Below, one piece after another: positions 5,099 through 29,158 of a DNA stretch of 64,000 nucleotides. The first letter of the stretch is position 1, and each line of letters starts with the position of its first letter. Below the pieces are notes generated by a model. That model ran no database searches and was not told where the DNA came from. It saw only the letters and a list, made by a program, of their open reading frames with translations. The translations under genes and the position numbers were made by a program. Source of the DNA: an uncultured Pelagibacteraceae bacterium (lineage in GTDB: Bacteria; Pseudomonadota; Alphaproteobacteria; Pelagibacterales; Pelagibacteraceae); assembly GCA_902594635.1 (NCBI GenBank), contig CACJMX010000004.1, forward strand, positions 969-64,968, read 5' to 3'.

Positions 5099-5100
5099 TA

Positions 5101-6563: not shown

Positions 6564-6564
6564 A

Positions 6565-7833: not shown

Positions 7834-9211
7834 ATTTTTCTCTATATTTTTTTACTACTCTTAAAGCCACAATGTTTAAACACAAAGTCACTATAAATAA
7901 TGACATTCCTAAAGCAAATGCAGCTTGCGTTTTTGGATCTCCAAATGCTTGGTCACCAATTAAAATGACGACAATTTGCGCAGTAATTGTTGAAGTAGAC
8001 TCTAATGGATTTAAAGTTAAGTTCGCAGCTAATCCAGATGCCATCACTACAATCATCGTTTCACCTATTGCTCTTGAAACACCTAATAATATTGATCCAA
8101 CAATTCCAGGTAAGGCTGCAGGAAAAATAACTTTTTTAATTGTCTCTGATTTAGTTGCACCCATGGCATAACTTCCATCTCTAAGACTTTGAGGAACACT
8201 TGTGATAACATCGTCACTAAGACTTGATATAAATGGAATAATCATAATCCCCATCACTCCACCAGCAGCAAGAGCACTCTCAGCAGATACTTCTAGCCCC
8301 ATTGCTGTTCCTATATCTTTTAAAAATGGTCCAACAGTTAAAGCTGCAAAAAAACCATAAACCACTGTTGGTATTCCAGCTAAAATTTCTATCAAAGGTT
8401 TTGCATACTGTCTTACTTTATATGATGCATATTCAGCTAAATATATTCCACTCATTAGACCAATCGGTATAGCTACACACATAGCAATGAAGGCTATAAA
8501 AAAAGTACCTGCAAAAATTGGAACTGCGCCAAAAGTATCTGAATACATTGTTGGATCTAATGCTTCAGATGAGTCTCTTACAAAAGCTTTTGCTGGATAC
8601 CAATGAGTTCCAAAAACAAAATCAAACAAAGGGATTACTTTAAAAAAATCTATTGTTTGAAATATTAATGAAAAGACAATTCCAACAGTAGTTAAAATTG
8701 CAGCTAAAGAGGCAGTGAATAGAACAGCGTTAAAAAACTTTTCTACTGGTTCTCTCGTTCGATTATTCGATGAGATTCTTTTGTATGCATAAGCTACAGA
8801 AGCAATAATAATACATAAAACTATAACAACTTTTGAGCTTTGAGCTATTGAACGAAGATTTAAATATTTTTCTGATGAAACTTGAATAAAAGATGTAACT
8901 TCTCCTGTAAATTGACCACGGGAAAGTGCTTTCGTTTTTTCATAAATTAGATTTAGTTCATCATCTAGAAAACCTTGATTTGCATAATCACTTAAAATTA
9001 GTAATTTTACGATGGTTGGTTCAAAAATTGCCCATAAGGAATAAATAATAAATGCTGGAATAGCGCACCATATAGCTAGATAGTATCCGTAGAATTGTGG
9101 GAGTGCGGTTAATCTTTTATTAGTTGATTGAATTGTGTATGCTTTTTTTCTTCCAAAATAATAACTTGTGAAGCCTAGTAAAACTATAAATATAAACAAT
9201 ATTAAATTCAA
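7826..9211 (-). CDS. pstC: Phosphate ABC transporter permease PstC
   Basis: EILAGIPTVVYG, SRAIGETM, YAMGATKSE. Confidence 0.95.
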   Translation of the reverse strand: MNLILFIFIVLLGFTSYYFGRKKAYTIQSTNKRLTALPQFYGYYLAIWCAIPAFIIYSLWAIFEPTIVKLLILSDYANQGFLDDELNLIYEKTKALSRGQFTGEVTSFIQVSSEKYLNLRSIAQSSKVVIVLCIIIASVAYAYKRISSNNRTREPVEKFFNAVLFTASLAAILTTVGIVFSLIFQTIDFFKVIPLFDFVFGTHWYPAKAFVRDSSEALDPTMYSDTFGAVPIFAGTFFIAFIAMCVAIPIGLMSGIYLAEYASYKVRQYAKPLIEILAGIPTVVYGFFAALTVGPFLKDIGTAMGLEVSAESALAAGGVMGIMIIPFISSLSDDVITSVPQSLRDGSYAMGATKSETIKKVIFPAALPGIVGSILLGVSRAIGETMIVVMASGLAANLTLNPLESTSTITAQIVVILIGDQAFGDPKTQAAFALGMSLFIVTLCLNIVALRVVKKYREKYE

Positions 9212-9244
9212 TGAAACCCCTTTACGTTGACTTTACACTTTTCT

Positions 9245-9272
9245 AAAAAAAAGGGGTCTAAAAAGACCCCTT
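9245..9272 (-). terminator. Intrinsic terminator / stabilising hairpin between pstS and pstC
   Basis: Perfect 9-bp stem AAGGGGTCT-(4 nt)-AGACCCCTT followed by a T-run on the minus strand. Confidence 0.85.
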
Positions 9273-9297
9273 AATTTCTATTTGTTAATCAAACTTA

Positions 9298-10329
9298 TTA
9301 GTCAGCCATTGCGACAAGATTTTTCGCGTTATCTCTAGTTGTTCTATACAACCCTTTATCTAACGGTACTAAACCAATGTCAGCTAAATAACCATTTTTA
9401 CCTATCGCTTTAGTTGTAGTGAATTCTTTTACAAATTCATGTAAACCAGGGATCACACCAACGTGAGCCTTTTTAACGTAGAAAAATAATGGTCTTGCAA
9501 CTGCATAGCTGTAATCTTGAATAGATTCTAAAGAAGGTTGACCACCTTCAATACTTGCAGCTTGAAGTTTATCTTTAGCAGCTAAGAAGTAACTGAAACC
9601 AAAGAAACCAAACATTTCTTTATCTTGAGTAAGTTTTTGAATAATTAAACTATCATTTTCACCTACCTCAATTGCAGCACCATCTTCTCTGTAAAGTTTT
9701 TGTGGCTTTTTATATTTTTTGTTTCCAGCTTCAAAACCTTTTTTATAAAGCGCTTTAGCTTCTTTTGGCATACCTTTTTTCATTACCAAAGAATTCCAAG
9801 CATCTCTTGTTCCAGAAGTTCCTGGAGGAATCATAACTGAAATTTTTTGTTTTGGTAAACTTGGATCTATTTGATCCCATGAAGTATAAATGTTATCAAC
9901 TAGTTTACCATCAACAACAGAGTGTTTAGCTAATGCTTTCCAAAGTTGTTCTTTTGTAAAGTTAACTGGTTCTGCATCTAAGCTGTATGCTAATGTAATA
10001 CCGTCATTACCGATTACGATTTCAACGATTTCATTAACACCATTTTTTTTACATAGAGCTTTCTCTTTATCTTTCATTGCTCTTGATGCATTTGTTATAT
10101 CTGGATGGTTCTCACCAACACCAGCACAGAACAGTTTAGCTCCTCCACCAGTACCAGTAGATTCGATTACAGGAGTTTTAAATCCCTTACTACCAAATCT
10201 TTCAGCAACAACAGTTGCATATGGGAATACTGTAGATGAACCAACTATTTTGATTTGATCTCTTGCTTGTGCAACAGTTGCAATTGTTAGTGCAACTAAT
10301 GATGCAACAATTATAGTTAGTTTTTTCAT
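9298..10329 (-). CDS. pstS: Phosphate-binding protein PstS
   Basis: Signal peptide, GSSTV, ESTGTGGG, PPGTSGTR, YAVARPLFFY; start at ATG 10329 behind an AAAGGA RBS. Confidence 0.96.
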   Translation of the reverse strand: MKKLTIIVASLVALTIATVAQARDQIKIVGSSTVFPYATVVAERFGSKGFKTPVIESTGTGGGAKLFCAGVGENHPDITNASRAMKDKEKALCKKNGVNEIVEIVIGNDGITLAYSLDAEPVNFTKEQLWKALAKHSVVDGKLVDNIYTSWDQIDPSLPKQKISVMIPPGTSGTRDAWNSLVMKKGMPKEAKALYKKGFEAGNKKYKKPQKLYREDGAAIEVGENDSLIIQKLTQDKEMFGFFGFSYFLAAKDKLQAASIEGGQPSLESIQDYSYAVARPLFFYVKKAHVGVIPGLHEFVKEFTTTKAIGKNGYLADIGLVPLDKGLYRTTRDNAKNLVAMAD

Positions 10330-10395
10330 TATCTTTAATCCTTTCATTAATTAATTAAAAGATGAGTGACTCGTACAAATTCATTGAATCTTTAA

Positions 10396-10424
10396 TATTA
10401 CAGATTTGTTACAATTTTGTTAAA
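10396..10424 (-). promoter_or_regulatory. Pho-box-like array upstream of pstS (three 11-bp-phased repeats)
   Basis: Minus strand TTTAACA-aaat-TGTAACA-aatc-TGTAATA; 7+4 spacing matches the known PhoB box architecture. Confidence 0.75.
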
Positions 10425-10435
10425 ATGATAACTTT

Positions 10436-11044
10436 TTAGTTGTATTTCATTGAGATAACTATCTCATTAGTTTCAGTTTCTAAGCCCCCTTTGCAAGAAA
10501 CAGGATTAGAATTATTACTAAAAGCTAGGTCAGGTGTAGGATATAAAGTAACTTCAAGTCTAACTAAATTTACAAGTTCTTCTAATACCATTGGATCATA
10601 TCTCCATTTAGGCCAATTAGATGGTGTTGAGAATATTGAAGTAAGATAACTTGTTGCCATAGTGTACCTATAATTACTCAAATTTTGATCTTTTAAAAGA
10701 TGGTCCCTAACAGAATTAAATATATTTCTGCATCTAAATGAGTCGGACATATAAGTAGATTTATCGAGCCCCTCTTTCATTGGTATAGATACAAGCATAT
10801 CCACACTATTTCTCCACCAAGATGAAACAACATCTAAATAAATTTCCTCATACTTAGCAGCAGAATGCTGCTTTATTACTGGATAGGTTTTTTTTAAATC
10901 CTCCTGCAATCTAAAGACACCTATATCAAACACGGTTAATTGTTGATTTCTCAGAATTGTTGAAATATCTAAAGAATAACTATTCAAAATTGATGAGAAA
11001 ATAAAAACAAATGAAATTAAAATACTTTTAAATATTTTTAACAT
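10436..11044 (-). CDS. Hypothetical exported protein between phoR and pstS
   Basis: 202-aa ORF filling the gap, signal-peptide-like N-terminus (MLKIFKSILISFVFIFSSILNSYS), two Cys; family not recognised. Confidence 0.8.
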   Translation of the reverse strand: MLKIFKSILISFVFIFSSILNSYSLDISTILRNQQLTVFDIGVFRLQEDLKKTYPVIKQHSAAKYEEIYLDVVSSWWRNSVDMLVSIPMKEGLDKSTYMSDSFRCRNIFNSVRDHLLKDQNLSNYRYTMATSYLTSIFSTPSNWPKWRYDPMVLEELVNLVRLEVTLYPTPDLAFSNNSNPVSCKGGLETETNEIVISMKYN

Positions 11045-11052
11045 TCAAAAAA

Positions 11053-11074
11053 TTTAAATAAACTGTAACAATAA
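11053..11074 (+). promoter_or_regulatory. Pho-box-like element, reverse-oriented relative to the hypothetical gene
   Basis: TTTAAATAAACTGTAACAATAA closely matches the plcP box TTTAATAAAACTGTAACATAAA. Confidence 0.5.
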
Positions 11075-11139
11075 TCAATAAAATATTTGTTAAATTTTTA
11101 ACGAATTTTATTCAATTTTTAACACTTTTTCAGCTTTAA

Positions 11140-12288
11140 CTATTTTGTTGGAAGATAAATTTTTATTTCTGTACCTTTGTTAACAGAACTAAGAATCTCA
11201 TAATCTCCTCTATGCTGGGTGATTATATGTTTCATAATTGCTAACCCTAAACCTGTGCCACCAATTTTTTTACTTTTTTCGGTATCAACTCTAAAAAATC
11301 TTTCAGTAATTCTTGGAATAAATTCCTGTGGGATACCTATTCCATAATCTTTCACACTGATCATTAAATGTTTATCTATTAACTTACCAACGCAATCTTC
11401 ACTTTTTATTTTTATATTTTTATTTTCCTCTGAATACTTTATTGCATTATCAATTAAGTTAGAAAAAACAGTAAAAAGTTTATCGGTGTCTCCATACACT
11501 AAAGTTGGCTGCATTAAATTAACTTTTAAATTGAGTTTTTTCTTTTTGAGAGGTAACTCAAAATTACTTTTAATATTTAAAACAATATCATTAATATCTA
11601 CAATTTGGTTTGGTTTGATATGTTCTTCAAGTTCAATTCTACTTAATATTAACAAATCATTAATTAAATTCTCCATTCTTACAACTTGATCTGACATAAT
11701 TTTCATGAATTTCTTTTGAGCTTTTGCATCATCTGATGCTGGCCCCAAAATAGTTTCTAAAGAACTTTTTATAGAGACTAAAGGTGTTCTTAATTCGTGG
11801 CTAACGTTAGCAACAAAATCTGTTTTAAATTTTTGAGCTTTTGTAATTTCTGTAAAATCTTTCAAAAACAAAACAACAGAATTATTTTCTGGAAACAAAT
11901 ATGTAGGTCCAGGAATGATGTAAATTTTGTAAAGTTGATATGACGGAAGGTTAATTTCAATGTCAATATTTTGGGTCACCTGTGTCTCAATAGTTTTTTC
12001 TATTGACTCAAGTAGTTTGGTATCTCTGATTACAGTAGATATATTTTTGTCTATTAGATTTTGCCCAAATCGCTGTTTTGCACTTTTATTAAGATATTTA
12101 ATTTGATTATACCTATCTAATGCAAAAAATTGATCTTCTAACTCTTCAATTATAACTCTTTTACTTAAATCGTTTTTGTTAGATTTGTTTTCAACAGTAG
12201 CAGTGTTTTCAGGTTTTACATTTTTTTTAACTAAAAAATAACCTAATACAATTATTACAATAACAAAAAAAATAGTAAGTAAATCCAT
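11140..12288 (-). CDS. phoR: Phosphate sensor histidine kinase PhoR
   Basis: Single N-terminal TM, PAS-like region, ANVSHELRTPL, NLIDNAIKY, DYGIGIP, GGTGLGLAI. Confidence 0.92.
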   Translation of the reverse strand: MDLLTIFFVIVIIVLGYFLVKKNVKPENTATVENKSNKNDLSKRVIIEELEDQFFALDRYNQIKYLNKSAKQRFGQNLIDKNISTVIRDTKLLESIEKTIETQVTQNIDIEINLPSYQLYKIYIIPGPTYLFPENNSVVLFLKDFTEITKAQKFKTDFVANVSHELRTPLVSIKSSLETILGPASDDAKAQKKFMKIMSDQVVRMENLINDLLILSRIELEEHIKPNQIVDINDIVLNIKSNFELPLKKKKLNLKVNLMQPTLVYGDTDKLFTVFSNLIDNAIKYSEENKNIKIKSEDCVGKLIDKHLMISVKDYGIGIPQEFIPRITERFFRVDTEKSKKIGGTGLGLAIMKHIITQHRGDYEILSSVNKGTEIKIYLPTK

Positions 12289-12298
12289 AATATTATTA

Positions 12299-12327
12299 TG
12301 TAATAAATTTGAAATAATTTTTTAACA
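12299..12327 (+). promoter_or_regulatory. Pho-box-like array upstream of olsB
   Basis: TGTAATA-aatt-TGAAATA-attt-TTTAACA, 11-bp period, followed by TTAAA as in the pstS array. Confidence 0.7.
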
Positions 12328-12359
12328 TTAAATACATGTGAATCTTTTATCAAAGATTC

Positions 12360-13187
12360 ATGACAATAAATACTCTATTAAGAAAAGTTAATCAGAACAA
12401 AAAATTTAATATTAATACTTATGATTTTTTTAAACCTACATTTAATGTCAAACTAGCTGAAAGCAGAGGTGAAATAAAACTTGCACAAAAACTCAGATAT
12501 AAAGTCTTCTTCTCAGAAAGAATAAAAAACCCTATATTAAATATAGGAAACTTTAGAAGAGACTCTGATAAATTTGATAATTATGCAGATCATATAATTG
12601 TAACCCACAGAAAATCAAAATTTTCGAAGACAAAAGTAATTGGCACTTATCGTTTACTTAAGCAATCTGTTGCAGAAAAAAAATCAGGTTTTTATAGTTG
12701 CGATGAATTTAATTTAGAGAATTTATTAAATTCAAGAATTTATAATAATATGCTTGAATTGAGTCGATCATGTATATCTAAAAAATTTAGAAATAAAAAT
12801 GTACTCCAATTAATGTGGAAAGAAATTCATCATTATATTAATAAAAATAATATCGATGCTTTGTTTGGTACAGCCAGTTTCTTAAGCACTAATGTTAGCA
12901 AGATTGAGGATCAGTTAATATATCTTAATCATCATCACAAAATGCCAGATAACATTACCGTCAGTGCTTTACCAAAATATAGAGTAAATATTGATTACCA
13001 AAAGAAAATTAATTTAAATATTAAATTATTTGCAAAATTACCCACTTTAATCAAAGCATATTTAAAGTTTAATGCATCTATCGGGGCAGGTGCTGTAATT
13101 GACAATAAATTCAAGACAACAGATGTTTTTATTTTTTTACCAATTGAAAAAATAAATAAAGAATATGTAAATAAAATTTTGGACTAA
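12360..13187 (+). CDS. olsB: Ornithine-lipid N-acyltransferase OlsB (GNAT, often annotated 'hemolysin')
   Basis: AQKLRYKVF, DKFDNYADH, GTYRLL, FYSCDEF, ELSRSCI, LPTLIKAYL, DNKFKTTDV match the OlsB family pattern. Confidence 0.85.
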   Translation: MTINTLLRKVNQNKKFNINTYDFFKPTFNVKLAESRGEIKLAQKLRYKVFFSERIKNPILNIGNFRRDSDKFDNYADHIIVTHRKSKFSKTKVIGTYRLLKQSVAEKKSGFYSCDEFNLENLLNSRIYNNMLELSRSCISKKFRNKNVLQLMWKEIHHYINKNNIDALFGTASFLSTNVSKIEDQLIYLNHHHKMPDNITVSALPKYRVNIDYQKKINLNIKLFAKLPTLIKAYLKFNASIGAGAVIDNKFKTTDVFIFLPIEKINKEYVNKILD

Positions 13188-13924
13188 TGCAGCAAATACT
13201 GGAGAAAATTTCAAAAATTGATGAAATCAAATCTTTGTATAAAGTTAATTACAAGGAATTAAAACAATCAAATAATTTTTGGAAAAAAACTTTAGATATT
13301 TTAAAAATAAATTATATTGCAGAAAATGTTGACAATATACCTAAAGCAGGATCAAGTATAATAGTTGCAAATCATCCATTTGGATTATTAGATGGACTAA
13401 TAATTTGTTCAATAATATGTGATGTCCGAAAGGATTATAAAATTTTAATTAACGATGAAGTTTCACAAATTGACCAAATAAGAGAATACTTGTTACCAAT
13501 TAAATTTTCAACATTAACAGAAGATATTAAAAAAAATATCATTTCTAAAAAAAAAGCAATTGAGCACGTAAATTCAAATGGAATTTTAATAACCTTTCCT
13601 TCAGGAGAAGTTGCAACTTCTTCTCTAATTTTTAATGAGGCTAATGAAAGAAGATGGAAACCATTAATTGGATCTATAATTAACAAGACAAATGCTACAA
13701 TTATTCCTGTACGTTTTTTTGGAAAAAATAGCTTACTTTTTCACACAGTAGGTTTTGTAAATAATAATTTAAGAAGAATTTTATTTATACGAGAATTATT
13801 AAATAAAAAAAATCAAACATTTAAGCTTAGTATTGGGAAAAAAATTTCATCACTACAAAACGAAAGATTAAATAATAGACAAATAGTAGACAAACTTAGA
13901 TCTATAGTTGTAAATATTAATTAG
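13187..13924 (+). CDS. Lyso-lipid O-acyltransferase (PlsC fold; OlsA/OlsF-N-like)
   Basis: ANHPFGLLDG (HX4D) and FPSGEV motifs; start overlaps the olsB stop. Confidence 0.8.
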   Translation: MQQILEKISKIDEIKSLYKVNYKELKQSNNFWKKTLDILKINYIAENVDNIPKAGSSIIVANHPFGLLDGLIICSIICDVRKDYKILINDEVSQIDQIREYLLPIKFSTLTEDIKKNIISKKKAIEHVNSNGILITFPSGEVATSSLIFNEANERRWKPLIGSIINKTNATIIPVRFFGKNSLLFHTVGFVNNNLRRILFIRELLNKKNQTFKLSIGKKISSLQNERLNNRQIVDKLRSIVVNIN

Positions 13925-14921
13925 GGGAGATATTATCGAAGAATATTTTAGCTGTTTCTTCCCAGCTATATTTTTTAGCAAATTCTAAACAATCTTCTCT
14001 ATTAACTTTTAAAGCCTTTAGAGCAGAAGCTTTAAGATCATTATCTAATGTATCTATGTTAGTCTCACCTAATATATCTTTAGGGCCTGGAACAGGATAG
14101 GCAGCAACTGGTGTTCCACAATTTAAAGACTCTAGCACAACAATACCAAAAGTATCTGTTTTGCTAGGAAAGACAAAAACATCAGAAGAAGCAAAATGAG
14201 ATGCTAATTCTCCGTTTGTTTTTTCACCTAAAAAAATGTCATTTGGAAATTTTTTTTTCAAATTGTTCAGGTCTGGACCTTTTCCAATAATAACTTTTGT
14301 GCCTTCTAATTCTAAATCTAAAAATGCATTAATATTTTTTTCAACAGCCACTCTTCCAACATAAATCCATACAGGTCTTTTGTAAGGTAAATCTATTTTA
14401 ACTGGGTTTTTAAAGGCTCCATGATTACCACCCCTTGTCCAAGTTACCATTTTATTATTATCAACCCCTAATGCTATTAATTCCTCACGCATCGACTCTG
14501 TTGTTACTAAAATTCTTTCAGCTTTATTATGAAAATTACATAAAAACTTCTCTGACCATTTTGCAGGAATGATTGGCATGTAAAGTTTCATATATTTGTC
14601 AAATCTAGTGTGAAAGCTAGTAGTAAATTTTAAACCATTTTTAATACAGTGTCTTCTTGCCATAAAACCTAAAGGACCTTCGGTTGCGATGTGTATTGCA
14701 TCGGGTTTTATCGCATTGATTAAATTACTTACTCTTGGCCAAACATTTAATGATAATCTAATCTCATTATATTTTGGCATAGGAACAGTAAGAAATTGTT
14801 GGGGTGTGATGAACTCTATGTTGTGACCTTGAGATTTTAATATTTCTCCAGTTTCATGCAAAGTTCTAACTACACCATTCACTTGTGGATAGTATGCATC
14901 TGTTACGATTAGAATTTTCAC
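13917..14921 (-). CDS. agt: GT4 glycosyltransferase, Agt-like (glucuronosyl/glucosyl-diacylglycerol synthase)
   Basis: TDAYYPQVNGVV, ATEGPLG, YVGRVAVEKN, FPSKTDTFGIVVLE; downstream of plcP. Confidence 0.85.
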   Translation of the reverse strand: MKILIVTDAYYPQVNGVVRTLHETGEILKSQGHNIEFITPQQFLTVPMPKYNEIRLSLNVWPRVSNLINAIKPDAIHIATEGPLGFMARRHCIKNGLKFTTSFHTRFDKYMKLYMPIIPAKWSEKFLCNFHNKAERILVTTESMREELIALGVDNNKMVTWTRGGNHGAFKNPVKIDLPYKRPVWIYVGRVAVEKNINAFLDLELEGTKVIIGKGPDLNNLKKKFPNDIFLGEKTNGELASHFASSDVFVFPSKTDTFGIVVLESLNCGTPVAAYPVPGPKDILGETNIDTLDNDLKASALKALKVNREDCLEFAKKYSWEETAKIFFDNISPN

Positions 14922-14923
14922 GC

Positions 14924-15757
14924 TTAAGAAGCTCGCTTTAAATCTTCTACGTTATCTTTTTTATCTATTTCTTTTTTTTCTTCGTCCTCTGTTACGAATT
15001 CTTTCCTAGCATTATCCCAATAAATAATTTCAAATGTTCCATCATATTTCTCTGCTAAAGCAGTGCAGGACTCTACCCAGTCCCCACAGTTCAAATAATT
15101 AATTCCATCAAAATTTTGATCCTCAGCATGATGAATATGTCCACAAATTATACCATCATAGTTTTTTCTTTTTGCATAATCCGATACTGTTCTTTCATAT
15201 TCACCTATATATTTAACTGCATTTTTAACTTTATATTTTAAAAATTTTGCGAGAGACCAGTAACTTTTTCCTCTTAATTTTCTAAAGAAATTAATAACAA
15301 TATTTAATCTAAGTAATAGTCCATATGCGATTGATCCTAACTTAGATAACCATTTAGCATATTTCATTACACCGTCCCAAGCATCACCGTGGACAACAAG
15401 ATATTTTTTTCCAAGCGGTGTCTCATGAATAACTCTGTTAACTATATTGATATCCCCAAAATGCATTGGTATAAATTTTCTAAAAACCTCGTCATGGTTT
15501 CCAATTATATAAAATACTTTTGTTCCATGCCTTGCTTTTCTTAAAATTTTTTGTATTACGTCATTATGTTGTTGGGGCCAGTAAAAAGTTTTCTGCATTG
15601 CCCATACATCAATTATATCTCCTACTAGATATAAATTCTCTGACCTTGAATATTTAAAAAATTCTAATAATTTATCTGCCTGACACCCTTTAGTTCCTAG
15701 ATGCACATCTGAAATAAACAAGCTTTTATATGTAATTAAAGATTTTTTTGTTTTCAT
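14924..15757 (-). CDS. plcP: PlcP-type phospholipase C (LpxH-like metallophosphoesterase)
   Basis: SDVHLG, LVGDIID, GNHD, HGD, CGHIH, NCGDWVE. Next to agt and a Pho box; the lipid A step is already covered by lpxI in this window. Confidence 0.88.
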   Translation of the reverse strand: MKTKKSLITYKSLFISDVHLGTKGCQADKLLEFFKYSRSENLYLVGDIIDVWAMQKTFYWPQQHNDVIQKILRKARHGTKVFYIIGNHDEVFRKFIPMHFGDINIVNRVIHETPLGKKYLVVHGDAWDGVMKYAKWLSKLGSIAYGLLLRLNIVINFFRKLRGKSYWSLAKFLKYKVKNAVKYIGEYERTVSDYAKRKNYDGIICGHIHHAEDQNFDGINYLNCGDWVESCTALAEKYDGTFEIIYWDNARKEFVTEDEEKKEIDKKDNVEDLKRAS

Positions 15758-15821
15758 ATTTTCTTGTTATAATTAGTGATTCTATTATAAGTAGAATCTT
15801 TAACTCAATACTACATTTTTA

Positions 15822-15839
15822 TGTTACAGTTTTATTAAA
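15822..15839 (-). promoter_or_regulatory. Pho-box-like element for plcP-agt, abutting the dagK start
   Basis: Minus strand TTTAATA-aaac-TGTAACA, with a TATAAT 32 nt further toward plcP. Confidence 0.7.
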
Positions 15840-15840
15840 T

Positions 15841-16731
15841 ATGAAATTTTGTCTTATATATAACAAGAAATCAGCAGGTGGAAGAAAGTCAAAATTTATC
15901 AAAAAAATACTTGAAGAAATATCGAATCACCACAAAGTTGATTTATTTGAAACATCGAGTGAGTCTGAAGCCTCTGAGGTAATAAAAAACTTTGAAATAA
16001 ATAACTATGATAGATTGTTAGTTGCTGGAGGAGATGGTTCTGTTTCTTTTGCAATTAATGAATTAATAAAAAATAATTTCAAACTCCCTGAAAACTTTGC
16101 AATTGGATATATTCCAGCTGGTACGGCTAATATTTTGCAAGCAGAATTAGGTATGACTAAAAATGTAAAACATATTGCTAATACGCTTACATCAGATAAT
16201 TATGATAAAACATGTTTGGTTAAAATTAATGACAAGCATTTTATTTTAATGGCAGGTATTGGATGGGACGCTCAAATTGTAAATTCGATTGATTCTTATC
16301 TAAAGAAAATTCTAGGAAAAGTTATTTTTGGTATCAAAGGTTTCCATAAATTTTTATCAATGAATAATAAAAAAATTAAAGTGACGATAGATAAAGAAGA
16401 TATATTTGCTGATTGGGTTCTTTGCTCGAATAGCAAATACTATGCTGGACACCATAAAATTACAGATACACATATATTTGATAAAAAATTTACTACCTAT
16501 ATTTTTAAGGATCTAAAAAGATATAAATTGCTTTATTATATTTATTTAATAGCTGTATATGGAAATTTGGATAAATCTAAATCTGTGATTACTATACATG
16601 TAAATGAAATTAAATTTGATGGTTTGGGAAATAATATACCTGTACAAATTGATGGTGATAATTTCGGTGAGCACAAAAAAATAGTTGTTTCGTCTTCGGA
16701 AAGAAAATTTAATATCTTAAAAGCAGCTTAA
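15841..16731 (+). CDS. Diacylglycerol-kinase-family lipid kinase (DgkB/YegS-like)
   Basis: AGGDGSV, IPAGTANIL, MAGIGWDA, QIDGD; start placed at ATG 15841. Confidence 0.85.
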   Translation: MKFCLIYNKKSAGGRKSKFIKKILEEISNHHKVDLFETSSESEASEVIKNFEINNYDRLLVAGGDGSVSFAINELIKNNFKLPENFAIGYIPAGTANILQAELGMTKNVKHIANTLTSDNYDKTCLVKINDKHFILMAGIGWDAQIVNSIDSYLKKILGKVIFGIKGFHKFLSMNNKKIKVTIDKEDIFADWVLCSNSKYYAGHHKITDTHIFDKKFTTYIFKDLKRYKLLYYIYLIAVYGNLDKSKSVITIHVNEIKFDGLGNNIPVQIDGDNFGEHKKIVVSSSERKFNILKAA

Positions 16732-16732
16732 T

Positions 16733-17938
16733 CTATTTTACACGTCCATAAAAATCCTGGTATCTAACTATATCTGTTTCTTTAAGTATTGATCCTATTT
16801 GAGCTTCCATGATTTTTACAGGTTTTTTTCCAGGGTTTTGAATTCTATGTATTGATTGTAATGGTATAAATATATGCTCATTTGGTTTTTTTATAAAACT
16901 ATCTTTATTTAAAGTGATCTTGGGATTTCCTTGTGTAACTAACCAGTGTTCAGCTCTATGATGATGTTTCTGTAAACTTAATATTCCTTTTGGTTTAACA
17001 AATAATTCTTTAATCAAGAACTCTTTACCATTGAATAAATTTGTATATTTCCCCCAGGGACGATAGAAAATATTTTTTTTCTTAGCTAATTTGTTTTTAT
17101 TTTTGTCATACATCTTTAATATTTCTTTCCAGCTGCCAAGATCTGACCAAGGTATATCTAATTTAATTGCATTGATTTGTTTTGTTTTTTCCAAAATTGC
17201 ATAATCAAAAGATTTAGCAGTGGCTTTTATAAATGAAGCTTTATTTAAATAGTAAGTATTAGCTTTATATTTTGCTTTATTAACTGAATTTAAACAACTT
17301 CTGTAAATACTTGGATTATATTTTTTAAAGTTATTAATTATTGAATCTTTTCGAAGATAAAACATTCCTGAATTCCAATAACCTTTTTGTTTAATTACTT
17401 GTTTTGCTCTACTTTCTTTGGGTTTTTCTATGAATTTTGTTACTTTATTGATATTTCCTTTGATTTTTTTGGTTACAAAATATCCATATTCACTTGATGG
17501 TGAGGTTGGTTTAATTCCAAATATGAAAATATTTTGATCAGTTAAATTTGTCTGATTTTTGTTAATGGCTTTATTAAAAACGCTCATCTTTTCTATCAAA
17601 TGGTCTGCTGTAAAAAACATTAACGGCTGATTGTTAGGAATATCTTTTATTAAAGCAGTACTTAAAATAGCAGGAGCTGTATTTCTTTTTGCAGGTTCTA
17701 AAACAATTTTATATTTTTTAATCTTTTTTTTTTTAAGATGTTTTTTTACCTCTTTTAAATATTTCTTATTAGTGCTGATAATTGGTGCATCAAATATAGT
17801 TGCTTTTATTCTCTCTAAAGTTTTTCCAAATAGTGTCCAATTACCAAAATCAATAAACTGTTTTGCTTGATGATTTTTAGAATTTGGCCAAAGTCGAGTT
17901 CCAGCACCTCCACATAAAATGACTGGACGAATTTTCAT
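16733..17938 (-). CDS. manC: Mannose-1-phosphate guanylyltransferase / mannose-6-phosphate isomerase
   Basis: ILCGGAGTRLWP, EPAKRNTAPA, WNSGMF, WSDLGSW, cupin RPWG...SLQKHHHRAEHW. Confidence 0.9.
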   Translation of the reverse strand: MKIRPVILCGGAGTRLWPNSKNHQAKQFIDFGNWTLFGKTLERIKATIFDAPIISTNKKYLKEVKKHLKKKKIKKYKIVLEPAKRNTAPAILSTALIKDIPNNQPLMFFTADHLIEKMSVFNKAINKNQTNLTDQNIFIFGIKPTSPSSEYGYFVTKKIKGNINKVTKFIEKPKESRAKQVIKQKGYWNSGMFYLRKDSIINNFKKYNPSIYRSCLNSVNKAKYKANTYYLNKASFIKATAKSFDYAILEKTKQINAIKLDIPWSDLGSWKEILKMYDKNKNKLAKKKNIFYRPWGKYTNLFNGKEFLIKELFVKPKGILSLQKHHHRAEHWLVTQGNPKITLNKDSFIKKPNEHIFIPLQSIHRIQNPGKKPVKIMEAQIGSILKETDIVRYQDFYGRVK

Positions 17939-19656
17939 TAAATCTCTGAATAATCCTTAACTTCTTTTTTCTTACCTGGGTGTGTTGGTGCGCCTAAAAA
18001 CGCTGGACCAACGGTTTGTGCATATTTCCATAAAGTACCAGATCCAAAATCAGATTTTCTTGCTCTCCATTTTCTTTTTCTTAAAGCTAATTCTTTTTTA
18101 GAAAGTCTGACATTGATAGTTCCTTTTTTGGCATCGATATCAATAATATCTCCATTACGTAAAAGGCCTATAGGACCTCCTAGGGCAGCTTCAGGGCCCA
18201 CATGACCCACACAGAAGCCTCTCGTAGCTCCAGAGAACCTTCCATCAGTTATAAGAGCTACTTTCTCCCCTTTTCCCTGTCCATAAATTGCACCTGTTGT
18301 AGATAACATTTCTCTCATACCAGGACCCCCTACTGGTCCTTCGTATCTAATTATAATTACATCACCATCATTGTACTTTTTGCTTTGAACTGCTTTCATT
18401 GCACTTTCTTCATTATCAAAACATCTTGCTTTTCCAGTAAATTGTAATTTAGCTAATCCAGCAACTTTTACTATCGCTCCATCTGGAGCTAAGTTACCTT
18501 TTAAACCAACAACCCCTCCAGTAGGTGATAATGGATCTTTATAAGATCTCATTACTTTTTGTTTAGGATTAAATTTAATATTTTTTAAATTTTCTTTCAT
18601 TGTTTTCCCTGTGACAGTCATACAATCACCGTGGATGTAGCCACCTTCATATAAAGTTTTTAATAACATTGGTACACCACCTGCCAACCACATATCTTTT
18701 GCAACATATTTTCCACCTGGTTTTAAATCAGCAAGATAAGGAGTTCTTTTAAAAATTTTAGCAACATCCATTAAGTCAAATTTTATTCCTGCTTCATTTG
18801 CAATTGCCGGTAAATGTAATCCAGCATTAGTAGAGCCACCTGTTGCAGCAACTATTGTTGCGGCATTTTCTAAAGCTTTTCTGGTTACAATATCTCTTGG
18901 CTTAATTTGTTTTTTTAAAAGTTGCATAACCATTTTGCCACTTTCTTTTGCATACTTATCTCTTTCTTCGTATGGAGCTGGAGTACCTGCTGAATATGGT
19001 AATGCTAATCCAATAGCCTCAGATACACAGGCCATAGTATTTGCAGTAAATTGGCCACCACAAGCACCAGCGCTTGGACAAGCAACTAATTCTAATTTTC
19101 TAAGTTCTGCAGATGACATTTTACCTGATGAATGTTTTCCAACTGCTTCAAATACATCAACAACCGTTACGTCTTTACCTTTATATCTTCCTGGCAGAAT
19201 TGAACCTCCATAAATAAACACACTTGGAACATTTAATCTGACCATCGACATCATTAATCCTGGCAAAGATTTATCACATCCTGCAATACCAACTAATGCA
19301 TCATAACAATGTCCTCTAACTGTTAACTCAGCTGAGTCAGCTATAACTTCTCTTGAGATCAAAGATGATTTCATTCCTTCATGACCCATGGCAATTCCAT
19401 CGGTAACAGTGATGGTACAAAATTCTCTAGGAGTTCCACCATTTGCTCTAACTCCCTTTTTGACAGATTGAGCCTGTCGCATTAAAGCAATGTTACAAGG
19501 CGCGGCCTCATTCCACGTTGAAACCACGCCAATAAAGGGTTTTGATACATCTTTTTCAGTTTCTCCCATTGCATAATAAAATGATCTGTGTGGAGCTCTA
19601 TCTGCTCCTAATGATGTATGTCTACTTGGAAGTTTCTTTTTGTTAAATTTTGCCAT
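17938..19656 (-). CDS. ilvD: Dihydroxy-acid dehydratase
   Basis: [39 protein letters not shown]. Confidence 0.93.
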
Positions 19657-22283
19657 TATATACCCTTTATTGTTATTGATATCTTATCAACATCGTTCTT
19701 TAAATTATTATAATTAGTTTTTTCTTGTTCAACAATCTCTTTTGGTGCCTTATCTACAAAACTTTTATTTTCTAGTCTTTGAGATATCTTATGCATCTCT
19801 TGTTCTAATCGTTCTTGTTTACTAGTTAAATTTTCCTTTATTAATTTTAAATCAACATCTTTATCAAAATAGATCTTAAATAAATCCCCTGAAACAACCA
19901 TCGTAGCAGCCGGCTTATCTAAATCATCACTAAGGATATTATTTATACGACCTAATTTTTTAAGAATTATTTTATTTGAACTAATAAATTGCTTTTGATC
20001 TTTGTTTATATTGTTGATCGAAATATCTATAAATGAACCAGGACTTACATTTAGCTCATTTTTAAAGGATCTCAGCTCAGATATGATATTAATTATATTT
20101 TCTACCTGATCTGTGTGTGAATCTTTATTTGATTTTGCAGATATCCAATTTTTAAACATTAAATAATCATTACCCTTATTATCAAATTTATTTTTCAGCC
20201 AAATTTCTTCAGTAACAAAGGGAATAAATGGATGTAATAAAACTAGTATTTGTTTAAATACGTAAGCTGAAACTTTTTTAACCTCTTCTTTAGCGTCCTC
20301 ATCATCTGAAAAAAGAATTGTTTTAGAAAGCTCTAGATACCAGTCACAATAAGAATGCCAAGTAAATTGATAAGCATTTTTTGCGGCTTCATCAAATCGA
20401 TAATCTTCTAAGTTCTTAATGATTTTGTTAGTAGTTTCTGCTAACTCAGAATATATCCATTTATTAATATTAACTTTTAACTCTGGAATTTGATCTGTAT
20501 TTTTAAAATCACATTCATTGGTAATTAAAAAATTATTAGCATTCCATAGTTTATTTAAGAAATTTCTATAACCTTTAACTCTATCTTCAGAAAGTTTAAC
20601 ATCGGTTCCTGGTGACGCCATAGAAAGTAAAGTAAATCTTAAAGCATCTGCACTATATTTTTCAATTAGATCTAAGGGATCAATAACATTCCCTTTTGAT
20701 TTAGACATTTTTTGTCCTTTTTCATCTCTAACTAAAGCATGAACATAAATATCTTTAAAAGGTTCTTTGTTTAAAAATTCAGTTCCAAACATAATCATTC
20801 TTGCAACCCAAAAGAAAATAATATCAAAACCTGTTACTAATACTGAAGTTGGATAAAACTTATCAACAAACTTTTTATCATTAGGCCATCCAAGTGTTGC
20901 AAATGGCCAAAGACCAGACGAAAACCAAGTGTCTAAAACATCAGGATCTCTGTTTAGTTCAACATCTTTACCATAATGTTTGTTAGCTAATTGTTTTGCT
21001 TCATCTTCATCGTAAGCAACAAAAATTTTATTATCAGGACCATACCAAGCAGGTATTTGATGACCCCACCACAACTGTCTTGAAATACACCAGGGTTCTA
21101 TATTGTTCATCCATTGAAAATAAGTTTTGGACCAATTTTCTGGAAAGAAATTAGTTTTTTTTGAATTAACTACCTCTTTTGCTTTTACTGATAATTTTCC
21201 AGCATCAGCAAACCATTGCTCTGTTAAAAAAGGTTCAATTATCGAATTAGATCTATCTCCATAAGGAACTTTATTTTTAATATTTTCTTCCTTATCATAA
21301 AACTCTTTATCTTTTAATTCCTTTAAAATTCTTTTTCTTGCTTCAAACCTATCAAGACCAATATATTCTTTAGGAGCATTATCATTAATTTTGCCTGCTT
21401 CAGTAAAAATATTTATAATTTCAAGATTATTCCTTTGACCTACATCATAATCATTAAAGTCATGTGCTGGAGTTATTTTTAAAGCACCTGTTCCTTGTTC
21501 AGGATCTGCGTAATCATCTTCTATAATTTTTATTTTTCTTCCAACTATTGGGATTGTAACAGTTTTGCCAACATAAGATTTAAAACGATCATCTTTTGGA
21601 TTTACAGCTATTGCAGTGTCACCCAACATTGTTTCAGGTCTTGTAGTAGCAATTGTTATAAATTCATCCGTTCCATTAATTGGATATTTAATATAATAAA
21701 TTTTTGAATTTACTTCTCTTTGATCAACTTCTAAATCTGAAATGGCCGTTTTTAAAACTGTGTCCCAATTTACTAGTTTTTTATCCTTATAAATTAAACC
21801 TTTATTATATAAATCAACAAATACCTTTATTACAGATTTTGATAGATTTTCATCCATCGTAAAAGCATTTCTGGACCAATCACAAGAACATCCAAGTTTC
21901 TTTAATTGATTAATAATGATGTCACCGTATTGCTCTTTCCATTCCCAAACTTTTTCAATGAATTTTTCTCGACCAATTTCATTTTTATCAATTTTTTCTG
22001 CACTAAGTTTTTTTTCAACAAGAGCTTGAGTAGCAATTCCTGCGTGATCAGTTCCTGGTTGCCATAAAGTTTCATAGTTATTCATTCGATGATAACGAAC
22101 TAATAAATCTTGAATAGAATTATTCAAAGCATGCCCCATATGAAGACTACCAGTCACATTGGGTGGAGGTATTACTATAGAAAATTTTTTAGAATTTTCT
22201 TTAGGTTTAAATAGTCCATTTTTTTCCCAATAAGAATAAATTCTATCCTCAACATCAGAATGTATATATTTATCGTTACTCAT
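19656..22283 (-). CDS. valS: Valine--tRNA ligase
   Basis: [30 protein letters not shown]-terminal coiled coil. Confidence 0.97.
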
Positions 22284-22678: not shown

Positions 22679-23050
22679 TTAGCCAGTTTTTGAAATTCCA
22701 ACTGAAGAAATCTGTAAAGATTTATTAAATTTTAATTTTTGATCAGCTGTTAATTCTGAATATAATTTTGTTAAAAAATTATAATTCACATTCATATGAC
22801 CTTCTTGTGATTTTTCTAAATTAATTAGATACTCTGAAAAATCTTCAAAGAAATAATTGATTGGAACCTTTAAATAATTTGAAAGTTGTAATAGTCTTAT
22901 TGAACTTACCCCGTTAGTACCTTTTTCGTATTTTTGAATTTGTTGAAATGTAACGTTGATTGCTTTTGCTACTTTAGTTTGTGTCAAACCTAAAGCTAAT
23001 CTTCTTAGCTTAAGCTTATTGCCTAAGTGTTTGTTGAAATTATCTTCCAT
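22679..23050 (-). CDS. XRE-family HTH regulator (PraR/PhrR-like)
   Basis: RRLALGLTQ...TFQQIQKYEKGTN...PINYFF signature of the alphaproteobacterial PraR/PhrR group. Confidence 0.85.
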   Translation of the reverse strand: MEDNFNKHLGNKLKLRRLALGLTQTKVAKAINVTFQQIQKYEKGTNGVSSIRLLQLSNYLKVPINYFFEDFSEYLINLEKSQEGHMNVNYNFLTKLYSELTADQKLKFNKSLQISSVGISKTG

Positions 23051-23238
23051 TAAGACCCCTCTTAATTAAATTTTAAAGTCTTATTCAATAGAAAATTTAA
23101 ATTCTCTGCAATAGAAAAATTTTTATATTTCATTAGGTTTTTAGATAATTTTAAAACCTGTCAAGCATAAGTTAGCATTAAAAACTCAGAATAGGCCTAT
23201 GGAAATTGACCCTTATCTGACCTAAAAGTAAAAATTTG

Positions 23239-23973
23239 TTATAAGATTTGACTTAAAAATAGCTTAGTTCTCTCACTCTTTGGATTAGCAAAAAATTCTT
23301 TAGTATCAGCCTTTTCTACTATCTTTCCTTCATCCATAAAAATCATACTATCTGCCACTTCTTTAGCAAATCCCATTTCATGTGTAACAACAATCATTGT
23401 CATACCTTGATTAGCCAAATTTACCATAACATCTAGTACTTCTTTAATCATTTCAGGGTCAAGTGCTGATGTTGGTTCGTCAAATAACATTATTTTTGGC
23501 TCCATACATAAAGCTCTTGCAATAGCTACACGTTGTTGTTGTCCACCTGATAGTTGTCCTGGAAATTTTTGAGCTTGATCTAATATTTGTACTCTCTCTA
23601 AATGTTTTAAGGCTAATTCTTCTGCTTCTTTTTTAGGCAATTTTTTTACCCATATAGGCGCAAGCGTACAATTGTCTAATATAGATAAATGTGGAAATAA
23701 ATTGAATTGCTGAAATACCATACCAACTTCAGCTCTAACCTGCTCAATATTCTTAGTATCTTCTGAAATTTCTGTACCGTCAACAATTATATTACCTTCT
23801 TGATGTTCCTCTAATCGGTTAATGCATCTTATCAAAGTAGATTTTCCTGAACCGGAAGGCCCACATACAACTATTTTTTCTTTCGGCATCACCTCAAGAT
23901 TTATTCCACTTAAAACTTGAAAGTCTCCAAACCACTTGTTTACATCTTTGATTTGAATAATTGCTTCAGACAT
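23239..23973 (-). CDS. aapP: General L-amino acid ABC transporter ATPase
   Basis: [34 protein letters not shown]. Confidence 0.93.
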
Positions 23974-23976
23974 CTA

Positions 23977-26393: not shown

Positions 26394-26416
26394 TAAAAGC
26401 GAATATATTTAATATT

Positions 26417-26449
26417 AAAAAAAAGGGCTAGATAAATCTAGCCCTTTTT
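26417..26449 (-). terminator. Intrinsic (bidirectional-type) hairpin between aapJ and aapQ
   Basis: AAAAGGGCTAGA-TAAA-TCTAGCCCTTTT perfect stem with A/T runs on both sides. Confidence 0.88.
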
Positions 26450-26469
26450 AAAATTGTTTTAATTCACAA

Positions 26470-27510: not shown

Positions 27511-27639
27511 TATTCTTCCTTTTGTTTTTATTTGTTAACAAATAATTCAAAATCACTTTTGAATATTCATAATTTAAGCACGTTAAATATTTACCATCAA
27601 GATAAATTTCTGGATAATTATGACCTAAAATGAACAAGA

Positions 27640-27716: not shown

Positions 27717-27747
27717 ACAGATATTATGATACTGTTATAATACTAAA

Positions 27748-29154: not shown

Positions 29155-29158
29155 TTAG

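What the first reader, a model, noticed from the sequence alone, without database searches (positions are those of the whole stretch)
15758..15843. Candidate PhoB toggle at the diacylglycerol branch point: plcP-agt on, dagK off
Seen: plcP-agt and the DAG-kinase gene are divergent across 83 bp. The Pho box oriented toward plcP ends 1 bp before the dagK ATG (box 15822-15839, ATG 15841). Established: PlcP releases DAG from phospholipids, Agt glycosylates DAG, and DAG kinases return DAG to phosphatidic acid, so co-expression would be a futile cycle. Inference: one PhoB-P binding event activates degradation/glycolipid synthesis and blocks the kinase, and P resupply reverses it. The same reverse-box-at-start layout recurs at phoR, the unknown gene and perhaps sixA, suggesting a compact reversible lipid-remodelling circuit that I have not seen described.
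Basis: partly seen in the sequence, partly recalled or inferred. Interest (0 to 1): 0.8.

Follow-up and report, generated by a model that had tools for sequence, protein, structure and literature searches.

The report
Pho box overlapping the DAG-kinase promoter
In this SAR11 genome, the phosphate-starvation control site that switches on membrane-lipid remodelling (plcP-agt) lies on top of the start of the neighbouring diacylglycerol-kinase transcript, but ocean RNA data show the kinase staying roughly constant rather than being switched off.

Summary
A Pho box, ATTTAATAAAACTGTAACA (15822-15840, minus strand), abuts the kinase ATG. The box is not a chance match. A matrix built only from relatives ranks it 4th in the 1.25-Mb genome, and it and the two pstS boxes are the top non-coding hits. 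All 80 Pelagibacteraceae loci fetched keep agt-plcP<>dagK. The box lies 0-1 nt from the kinase ATG in six lineages, but 5-23 nt away in others.

New evidence: in five metatranscriptomes the kinase mRNA begins at 15827-15830, inside the strong half-site. PhoB bound there would cover -7..+12 of the kinase promoter.

The "kinase off" half of the toggle is not supported. Across 13 metatranscriptomes plcP tracks pstS (rho 0.88), while dagK tracks neither pstS (-0.07) nor plcP (0.11). It falls by at most about 1.5-fold in the two most starved samples.

In Burkholderia and Pseudomonas DagK is co-induced with PlcP. One Pelagibacter lineage carries a second, kinase-directed Pho box.

Best reading: PhoB raises PlcP/Agt against a constitutive DagK. 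Strong repression in individual cells remains possible but unproven.

The parts
13917..14921 (-). agt, a GT4 glycosyltransferase that makes glucosyl- and glucuronosyl-DAG in HTCC7211
   Evidence: Pfam Glyco_transf_4 / Glycos_transf_1. Lies immediately downstream of plcP (3-nt gap). Transcript depth tracks pstS (rho 0.77). The HTCC7211 Agt function is shown in PMC4796936 and PMC8231724.
14924..15757 (-). plcP, a metallophosphoesterase-type phospholipase C that releases DAG
   Evidence: Pfam Metallophos 1.3e-13, with sub-threshold LpxH similarity. 95.7% identical to the same-genus copy G126/L003. Transcript depth tracks pstS (rho 0.88, p 6e-5).
15758..15840 (.). 83-bp divergent spacer that holds both promoters
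   Evidence: The same arrangement occurs in 80 of 80 related loci.
15822..15840 (-). Pho box ATTTAATAAAACTGTAACA. The weak half-site ATTTAAT is at 15834-15840 and the strong half-site CTGTAAC is at 15823-15829.
   Evidence: Matrix rank 4 genome-wide and top non-coding hit, together with the pstS boxes. TTTAATAA and TGTAACAT are invariant among spacers from relatives with 69-99% DagK identity. Present in nearly all lineages examined.
15784..15789 (-). Conserved -10 element TATAAT (TATAAG in relatives at 70% identity) of the plcP-agt promoter
   Evidence: Conserved block in the phylogenetic footprint. plcP-side contig ends at 15778, 15780, 15783 and 15784. It lies 33 nt from the strong half-site (23 nt in L064), which is two (or one) 11-bp units beyond the E. 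coli Pho-promoter spacing.
15766..15771 (-). Second -10-like element, TATAAC, followed by the conserved ACAAG block. It could drive a near-leaderless plcP start.
   Evidence: Adapter-flanked contig ends at 15758 (X14, a P-stressed sample, depth 98.7) and 15756 (X9). AACAAG is conserved. These ends could instead come from RNA processing.
15778..15798 (.). Inverted repeat GATTCTA-N7-TAGAATC (two GANTC sites) that brackets the plcP -10
   Evidence: Read directly from the sequence. TTCTA and GAATCA blocks are conserved. GATTC also follows the Pho boxes of pstS and of other genera. Its function is unknown.
15817..15822 (+). Putative -10 of the kinase promoter (TTTTAT here; AATAAT in relatives at 70% identity)
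   Evidence: Inferred from its position 7 nt upstream of the mapped 5' end. It is only a weak consensus match.
15827..15830 (+). 5' end of the kinase mRNA, giving a 5' UTR of about 12 nt. It lies inside the strong Pho half-site.
   Evidence: Kinase-side contigs begin at 15827 (X6), 15829 (X9, X12, X16) and 15830 (X1). Four of these are flanked by sequencing-adapter sequence. X11 begins at 15815.
15841..16731 (+). dagK, a soluble DgkB/YegS/BmrU-type lipid kinase (DAGK_cat)
   Evidence: Pfam DAGK_cat 3e-21. NCBIfam YegS/Rv2252/BmrU subfamily scores 93.6 bits, below its cut-off of 118.65. PDB relatives are DgkB 2qv7, BmrU 3t5p and 3s40. GGDG (63-66) and D271-G272 are invariant. It shares a 90% cluster with HTCC7211 EDZ60488.1.

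Best explanation
The 83-bp spacer holds two back-to-back promoters. The Pho box at 15822-15840 is the conserved, distal PhoB~P site of the plcP-agt promoter. Under phosphate stress PhoB~P binds it and raises plcP-agt transcription about six-fold. It probably reaches the -10 at 15784-15789 through two degenerate 11-bp units.

The kinase gene has its own weak, PhoB-independent promoter. Its start (about G15829) falls inside the box only because the streamlined genome leaves no spare DNA. In natural populations kinase mRNA is constitutive, at about the level of ilvD, and is at most mildly dampened (about 1.5-fold or less) when the box is in use.

The diacylglycerol branch point is therefore shifted mainly from one side. 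The dagK:plcP transcript ratio goes from about 5:1 to about 0.5:1 because PlcP/Agt rise over a constant DagK. DagK most likely acts as a standing salvage valve that returns surplus DAG to phosphatidic acid.

Shown here: gene identities, the motif and its specificity, conservation, transcript 5' ends, and field co-variation. Inferred: PhoB binding, the activation geometry, and the substrate of the kinase.
For: - Motif specificity: the plcP box and the pstS boxes are the top non-coding hits of a relatives-only matrix.
- The box is invariant in the phylogenetic footprint and is present, oriented toward plcP, in nearly all lineages.
- Across 13 metatranscriptomes, relative to pstS: plcP rho 0.88 (p 6e-5), agt 0.77, olsBA 0.63, dagK -0.07. 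dagK vs plcP is 0.11.
- Stressed vs unstressed samples: plcP median 0.49 vs 0.13 (p 0.001); dagK 0.86 vs 0.63 (p 0.53).
- dagK contig depth exceeds plcP depth 3-9-fold in every sample except the two most starved.
- Kinase 5' ends at 15827-30 in five samples.
- Spacers are 45-109 bp everywhere, so overlap of the two promoters is forced by packing.
Against: - Expression comes from assembler contig word-depth of mixed natural populations. This is a poor, unstranded measure that cannot see single-cell switching.
- Only two samples are strongly starved. Those two have the lowest and third-lowest dagK/ilvD of the 13 (0.37, 0.55), which would fit partial occlusion.
- A box covering -7..+12 of a promoter is a classical repressor position.
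- The box-to-ATG gap of 0-1 nt is kept in six lineages whose plcP-side spacing varies from 33 to 64 nt. This could reflect selection rather than packing.
- PhoB binding was not tested.
Confidence: 0.5

Rival explanations
1. True reciprocal toggle. PhoB~P on the box activates plcP-agt and sterically blocks RNA polymerase at the kinase promoter. In a fully starved cell dagK is off, and it comes back on when phosphate returns. Population averaging and a low-affinity box hide this in bulk field RNA.
For: - The kinase 5' end at 15827-30 lies inside the strong half-site, so the box spans -7..+12.
- The box abuts the ATG (0-1 nt) in six lineages spanning 37-99% DagK identity.
- The two most starved samples have dagK/ilvD of 0.37 and 0.55 against an unstressed median of 0.63, and the dagK:plcP ratio falls about 10-fold.
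- phoR shares a spacer with the olsB-directed Pho array and trends down under stress (0.13 vs 0.45, p 0.07).
- Repression by promoter occlusion is established for PhoB/PhoP-type regulators (general knowledge).
Against: - There is no anti-correlation in 13 samples (rho +0.11 and -0.07).
- Four moderately stressed samples have normal or high dagK.
- DagK is co-induced with PlcP in Burkholderia (PMC13691135) and Pseudomonas (PMC5082522), so co-expression is physiologically tolerated.
- The 98-bp-spacer lineage has a dagK-directed box 13 nt from the plcP ATG. On the same logic that box would repress plcP.
- The unknown gene, which has a reverse box 8 nt from its ATG, goes up under stress.
- In the g10/g12 genera and two Pelagibacter lineages the box lies 18-23 nt from the ATG.
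Confidence: 0.25
2. Bidirectional co-activation. The shared Pho box (or PhoB spreading from it) also stimulates the kinase, so PlcP, Agt and DagK form one P-stress module as in Burkholderia.
For: - Published co-induction in B. cenocepacia and P. putida.
- The kinase is always found beside a Pho-controlled operon: plcP, pstS or phoR.
- About 30 Pelagibacter loci have a dedicated dagK-directed box at 66 nt, mirroring the plcP geometry of 61-64 nt.
- dagK/ilvD is somewhat higher in the four moderately stressed samples (0.77-2.0).
Against: - In this lineage there is no box oriented toward dagK, and the only box lies downstream of or over its start.
- dagK does not follow pstS or plcP in 13 samples, and is lowest in the most starved ones.
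Confidence: 0.08
3. The repeat is not a PhoB site. It could be the operator of another regulator or just a conserved AT-rich promoter element, and plcP induction works through something else, for example the GANTC inverted repeat.
For: - Only one half-site is strong in this genome.
- It lies 33 nt from the -10, further than in E. coli Pho promoters.
- A conserved GATTC/GAATC element accompanies all three P-stress promoters.
Against: - The same 11-bp-period motif occurs three times before pstS in this genome.
- It is specific to the Pho island genome-wide and resembles CTGTCAT-N4-CTGTCAT.
- phoB is encoded 11 kb away.
- plcP co-varies with pstS.
- Pho boxes were already predicted at plcP clusters (PMC4796936).
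Confidence: 0.05

Closest known systems
PlcP-Agt lipid renovation of SAR11 HTCC7211 (Carini 2015; Sebastian 2016, PMC4796936; Wei 2021, PMC8231724)
   Same: This is the orthologous locus. The kinase falls in the same 90% cluster as HTCC7211 EDZ60488.1. The neighbourhood is the same (phoR-olsBA-agt-plcP). A Pho box upstream of the plcP cluster was already predicted bioinformatically.
   Different: The two held papers that I searched do not mention the divergent kinase ('kinase' has 0 hits in PMC4796936 and in PMC8231724). They also give no transcription-start data.
Burkholderia cenocepacia plcP-agt-dagK operon (BCAL2364-2366; PMC13691135)
   Same: The same three enzymatic functions are linked genetically. 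The published model is that DagK recycles excess DAG made by PlcP.
   Different: There dagK is co-directional in one operon, and all three proteins rise under Pi depletion. Here dagK is divergent, has its own start inside the Pho box, and is not co-induced in field RNA. Orthology of the two kinases was not tested.
Pseudomonas putida BIRD-1 Pho regulon (PMC5082522)
   Same: PlcP, DagK, OlsA and OlsB are all part of the P-stress lipid response.
   Different: In BIRD-1 DagK is enriched under Pi depletion and is reported as PHO-dependent, which is the opposite of the toggle and different from the flat field profile seen here.
E. coli-type Pho promoters (pstS, phoA): CTGTCAT-N4-CTGTCAT replacing the -35 element
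   Same: Direct 7-bp repeats at an 11-bp period, oriented toward the activated gene, with multiple units at pstS. The spacing from the last 11-bp unit to the -10 is 7 nt here if four units are counted, against 6 nt in E. coli pstS.
   Different: The half-site is (C/T)T(G/T)TAA(C/T). The conserved pair sits two units further upstream, and the two proximal units are degenerate. Binding has not been tested.
Repression by promoter occlusion by PhoB/PhoP-family regulators (for example S. meliloti orfA-pit, Streptomyces PhoP targets; general knowledge, reviewed in PMC6988585)
   Same: A Pho box overlaps the core promoter and start site of a gene that has no box oriented toward it.
   Different: No repression was demonstrated here, and field RNA shows at most a 1.5-fold drop.

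Membership tests
Pho box (PhoB-binding site of a Pho-regulon promoter) | Two or more 7-bp direct repeats separated by about 4 A/T-rich bp (11-bp period) | tested here: met
   ATTTAAT-AAAA-CTGTAAC. The same period is seen in three units before pstS and olsB. TTTAAC-N5-CTGTAAC is conserved across genera.
Pho box (PhoB-binding site of a Pho-regulon promoter) | The same motif lies upstream of core Pho genes (pstS) in the same genome and is rare elsewhere | tested here: met
   In the relatives-only matrix scan, the plcP site ranks 4th and the pstS sites 5th and 7th of the whole genome. They are the top three non-coding hits.
Pho box (PhoB-binding site of a Pho-regulon promoter) | The box takes the place of the -35, about 10 bp upstream of the -10 | tested here: inconclusive
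   The conserved pair ends 33 nt from the conserved TATAAT (23 nt in L064). This fits only if two degenerate units bridge the gap. The consensus promoter scan did no better than chance.
Pho box (PhoB-binding site of a Pho-regulon promoter) | The downstream gene is induced by phosphate limitation | tested here: met
   plcP and agt depth co-vary with pstS in 13 metatranscriptomes (rho 0.88 and 0.77). This is correlative field data.
Pho box (PhoB-binding site of a Pho-regulon promoter) | Bound by phosphorylated PhoB | not testable with these tools
   Needs EMSA, footprinting or ChIP. phoB is present at 4415-5098.
DgkB/YegS/BmrU soluble lipid kinases (Pfam DAGK_cat) | DAGK_cat domain above the Pfam threshold | tested here: met
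   PF00781, 75.8 bits against a cut-off of 23.6.
DgkB/YegS/BmrU soluble lipid kinases (Pfam DAGK_cat) | Nucleotide-binding GGDG(T) motif and the C-terminal catalytic Asp (DGE-type) | tested here: met
   G63 G64 D65 G66 and D271 G272 are invariant across seven family members. The match to DgkB catalytic residues is from memory of the 2qv7 literature.
DgkB/YegS/BmrU soluble lipid kinases (Pfam DAGK_cat) | Reaches a curated NCBIfam equivalog or subfamily cut-off | tested here: not met
   The best hits are PRK13059 (97.4 bits, cut-off 313) and TIGR00147 (93.6 bits, cut-off 118.65). It is therefore a divergent member, and its substrate cannot be assigned by homology.
DgkB/YegS/BmrU soluble lipid kinases (Pfam DAGK_cat) | Phosphorylates diacylglycerol | not testable with these tools
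   Only genomic linkage to plcP-agt supports DAG as the substrate.
Single-site reciprocal switch (activator for one divergent promoter, occluding repressor for the other) | The regulator site overlaps the core promoter or start site of the second gene | tested here: met
   Kinase 5' ends at 15827-30 lie inside the box at 15822-40.
Single-site reciprocal switch (activator for one divergent promoter, occluding repressor for the other) | Transcripts of the two genes change in opposite directions with the signal | tested here: not met
   dagK vs plcP rho +0.11; dagK vs pstS -0.07; stressed vs unstressed p 0.53. The data are bulk, unstranded contig depths.
Single-site reciprocal switch (activator for one divergent promoter, occluding repressor for the other) | The layout is conserved wherever the gene pair occurs | tested here: inconclusive
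   The gap is 0-1 nt in six lineages, 5-6 nt in one and 18-23 nt in four. One lineage adds a dagK-directed box. In the g14 genus the kinase faces phoR with no box, or is separated from plcP by about 1.25 kb.

The most novel reading that the evidence does not exclude
One PhoB dimer site serves two roles in the ocean's most abundant heterotroph. It is the activator site of plcP-agt and an operator over the dagK start. In fully starved single cells DAG is then committed to glycolipids with the kinase shut, and the switch reverses on phosphate resupply. Sister lineages have rewired the same spacer: a second, dagK-directed box gives co-induction, and filler DNA gives insulation. Ecotypes would therefore differ in how they partition DAG under P stress.
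Probability: 0.2. Interest if true: 0.6.

Novelty: new variant of a known kind. Interest (0 to 1): 0.42.

Why it matters
PlcP/Agt lipid renovation is a major way in which SAR11 lowers its phosphorus quota in oligotrophic oceans. The role and control of the third enzyme, the DAG kinase, are undescribed in SAR11.

- The kinase is tightly linked to the module in all 80 fetched loci.
- Its transcript starts inside the Pho box.
- It is neither co-induced, as in Burkholderia and Pseudomonas, nor visibly shut off.

This gives a concrete and cheap experiment in HTCC7211. It also suggests that lineages differ in how this branch point is wired. In addition, it cautions against reading repression from a site that merely sits beside a neighbouring gene in streamlined genomes.

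Tried and rejected
What is known is that dagK is present in 54 of 151 family genomes and in only 2 of about 20 genomes of the same genus.

2. The published HTCC7211 P-starvation expression data could not be read. Carini 2014 and 2015 are not held.

3. Transcript starts from contigs are not clean.
- Contigs in X2, X5, X10, X25 and X26 span the whole spacer, so read-through, antisense RNA or DNA carry-over exists.
- X8 and X10 have flat, DNA-like depth and were left out of the statistics.
- In the two most starved samples the 5' parts of both genes are not assembled, so the start site under stress is unknown.

4. The consensus sigma-70 scan of the spacer gave one site against two expected by chance, so it adds nothing.

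5. I considered TATGAT/AAAGAT next to GATTC as the plcP -10, because it is conserved in other genera and at pstS. Within Pelagibacter the invariant block is TATAAT/G, so I prefer that. The difference between genera remains unexplained.

6. I rejected the upstream TTG at 15748 as the kinase start, because it lies upstream of the mapped 5' end.

7. phoR was tried as an internal positive control for 'reverse-box' repression. It gave only a trend (p 0.07).

8. Other intergenic matrix hits lie upstream of atpH-like, SnoaL-like and DUF1800-like genes. They show no obvious link to phosphorus.

Full report
**What is there.** The window is a 28% G+C piece of a 1.25-Mb, 17-contig genome. Domain searches give a contiguous phosphorus island:
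- ppx, ppk1, sixA
- phoB-phoU-pstBACS (4415-10347, -)
- an unknown gene (10436-11044, -)
- phoR (11140-12288, -)
- olsB and an OlsF-N-like acyltransferase (12360-13924, +)
- agt (13917-14921, -)
- plcP (14924-15757, -)
- a DAGK_cat lipid kinase (15841-16731, +)
- then manC-ilvD-valS.

The kinase belongs to the same 90%-identity cluster as the HTCC7211 protein EDZ60488.1. This is therefore the ortholog of the SAR11 locus whose PlcP and Agt were characterised experimentally (PMC4796936, PMC8231724).

**The observation.** plcP and the kinase are divergent across exactly 83 bp. Read toward plcP, the spacer begins ATTTAAT-AAAA-CTGTAAC-A (15840-15822). This is two 7-mers at an 11-bp period, directly against the kinase ATG. 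The pstS promoter of the same genome carries TTTTAAC-AAAA-TTGTAAC-AAAT-CTGTAAT, so the local half-site is (C/T)T(G/T)TAA(C/T). At plcP only the proximal half-site is strong.

**Is the box more than chance?** I built a 19-mer matrix only from the plcP spacers of other genera and scanned both strands of the whole genome. The plcP site ranks 4th and the two pstS sites rank 5th and 7th. These are the three best non-coding hits.

**Conservation.**
- The kinase is found in 54 of 151 family genomes, but in only 2 of about 20 genomes of the same genus.
- Where present, it is almost always divergent from agt-plcP (genera g1, g2, g5, g10, g12, g17).
- In g14 it faces phoR-pstS, or is separated from plcP by a 211-aa ORF plus about 470 nt. 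In g15 it faces pstS, with a Pho box between them.
- A scan of species-representative genomes returned 80 Pelagibacteraceae loci, all with agt- plcP- <> dagK+ manC- ilvD- valS-.
- These loci have 43 distinct spacers. Scoring every spacer shows a plcP-directed box 0-1 nt from the kinase ATG in six lineages (DagK identity 37-99%), 5-6 nt away in one, and 18-23 nt away in four.
- Within Pelagibacter (69-99% DagK identity) the invariant blocks are TTTAATAA, TGTAACAT, TTCTA, TATAA(T/G), GAATCA and AACAAG.
- The conserved -10 TATAAT (15784-15789) lies 33 nt from the strong half-site, and 23 nt in L064. Counted in 11-bp units, four units end 7 nt before the -10, against 6 nt in E. coli pstS. The conserved pair is therefore probably a distal, nucleating box followed by two degenerate units.

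**Transcript ends.** Public marine metatranscriptomes hold this locus at 96-99% identity. They are available only as unstranded assembler contigs.
- Kinase-side contigs begin at 15827 (X6), 15829 (X9, X12, X16) and 15830 (X1). Four of these are directly flanked by adapter sequence. X11 begins at 15815.
- The kinase mRNA therefore starts at about G15829, the complement of the first base of CTGTAAC, with a 12-nt leader. The Pho box spans about -7 to +12 of the kinase promoter.
- plcP-side contigs end at 15778-15784 in four samples. Adapter-flanked ends occur at 15758 (X14) and 15756 (X9).
- Contigs in five other runs cross the whole spacer, so these ends are good leads, not proof.

**Expression test of the toggle.** I took binned contig depths over 9200-19700 for 13 RT-PCR-type metatranscriptomes and normalised them to ilvD. 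The samples span a 1,500-fold range of pstS/ilvD.
- plcP follows pstS (Spearman 0.88, p 6e-5), as do agt (0.77) and olsBA (0.63).
- dagK follows neither pstS (-0.07) nor plcP (+0.11).
- Six stressed against seven unstressed samples: plcP 0.49 vs 0.13 (p 0.001); dagK 0.86 vs 0.63 (p 0.53).
- In the two extreme samples (X7 and X14, pstS/ilvD 385 and 176) plcP/ilvD is 0.82 and 0.75, and dagK/ilvD is 0.55 and 0.37. That is low in the range but not off.
- The dagK:plcP ratio moves from about 3-9 to about 0.5-0.7, almost entirely through plcP.

**Context from the literature and from relatives.**
- In B. cenocepacia, plcP-agt-dagK is one operon and all three proteins rise under Pi depletion. The authors propose that DagK recycles surplus DAG (PMC13691135).
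- In P. putida BIRD-1, PlcP, DagK, OlsA and OlsB are enriched under Pi depletion in a PHO-dependent manner (PMC5082522).
- Co-expression is therefore tolerated, and the 'futile cycle' argument is not a constraint.
- About 30 of the 80 Pelagibacter loci (98-bp spacer) carry a second Pho box on the other strand. It points at dagK, 66 nt from the dagK ATG and only 13 nt from the plcP ATG. This mirrors the 61-64 nt geometry of the plcP box. That lineage probably co-induces the kinase, and it shows that a box beside the partner's start does not by itself mean repression.
- In this genome the unknown gene, which has a reverse-oriented box 8 nt from its ATG, goes up under stress (1.3 vs 0.7, p 0.014). 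phoR only trends down (0.13 vs 0.45, p 0.07).

**Verdict.** The mechanism best supported by the evidence is one-sided. PhoB raises PlcP/Agt over a constitutive kinase, with at most mild interference (confidence 0.5). A genuine single-cell toggle remains possible (0.25). Co-activation is unlikely in this lineage (0.08).

The enzymes, the Pho control of plcP and the plcP-agt-dagK linkage are all known. What is new is the conserved divergent layout with the start inside the box, its decoupled field expression, and the lineage-specific rewiring. It is a new variant of a known kind and of moderate interest.

**Limits.** Expression rests on contig word-depths of mixed populations, with no strand information. 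The start site under stress is unresolved.

Noticed in passing
L104-L131 type loci (98-bp plcP<>dagK spacer), e.g. L104 just upstream of its dagK match (match 4001-4876): Two face-to-face Pho boxes. TTTTAACAAATTTGTAACA points toward plcP, 61 nt from the plcP ATG. TTTTAATACAACTGTAACA, on the other strand, points toward dagK, 66 nt from the dagK ATG and 13 nt from the plcP ATG. This suggests PhoB co-induction of the kinase in this Pelagibacter lineage.
   Followed up: partly
window 11140-12359 (phoR and the phoR<>olsB spacer): phoR transcript depth trends lower in P-stressed metatranscriptomes (median phoR/ilvD 0.13 vs 0.45, p 0.07). In unstressed samples one contig covers phoR plus the unknown gene. 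In stressed samples the contig covers only the unknown gene and stops at about 11257-11319, inside the phoR 3' end.
   Followed up: partly
window 10436-11139 (unknown 202-aa gene and its upstream region): The unknown gene is well expressed everywhere and rises with P stress (1.3 vs 0.7 of ilvD, p 0.014). This is despite a reverse-oriented near-copy of the plcP box (ATTTAAATAAACTGTAACA, + strand) 8 nt from its ATG. Its transcripts appear to start inside the phoR 3' end.
   Followed up: partly
window 15778-15798; also 10386-10395 and 12339-12359: GATTC/GAATC (GANTC) elements accompany all three P-stress promoters, and at plcP they form an inverted repeat around the -10. (T/A)A(T/A)GATTC directly follows the Pho box in other genera. 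This could be a second regulator's operator or CcrM-type methylation sites.
   Followed up: partly
L043, L046-L049 (genus g14), between plcP and dagK: A 211-aa ORF on the + strand is followed by about 470 nt without an ORF, before dagK. That is unusually long non-coding DNA for this family. A lone ATGTAAC half-site sits 3 nt before the dagK ATG.
   Followed up: no
80 related loci: Only about 16 of the 80 loci keep olsB-olsA between phoR and agt. In the others phoR sits directly next to agt, so the ornithine-lipid pair is an optional insert in the island.
   Followed up: no
window 9298-10347 (pstS): pstS contig depth reaches 23,000-38,600 in two metatranscriptomes, against about 50-60 for ilvD. 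An adapter-flanked end at 10345 lies within the start codon (ATG 10345-10347), as at plcP.
   Followed up: no
genome contigs C1:299849-299867, C2:3171-3189, C1:496882-496900: Weaker intergenic matches to the Pho-box matrix lie 48-72 nt upstream of an atpH-like gene, a SnoaL-like 127-aa gene and a DUF1800-like 479-aa gene. There is no obvious link to phosphorus.
   Followed up: partly
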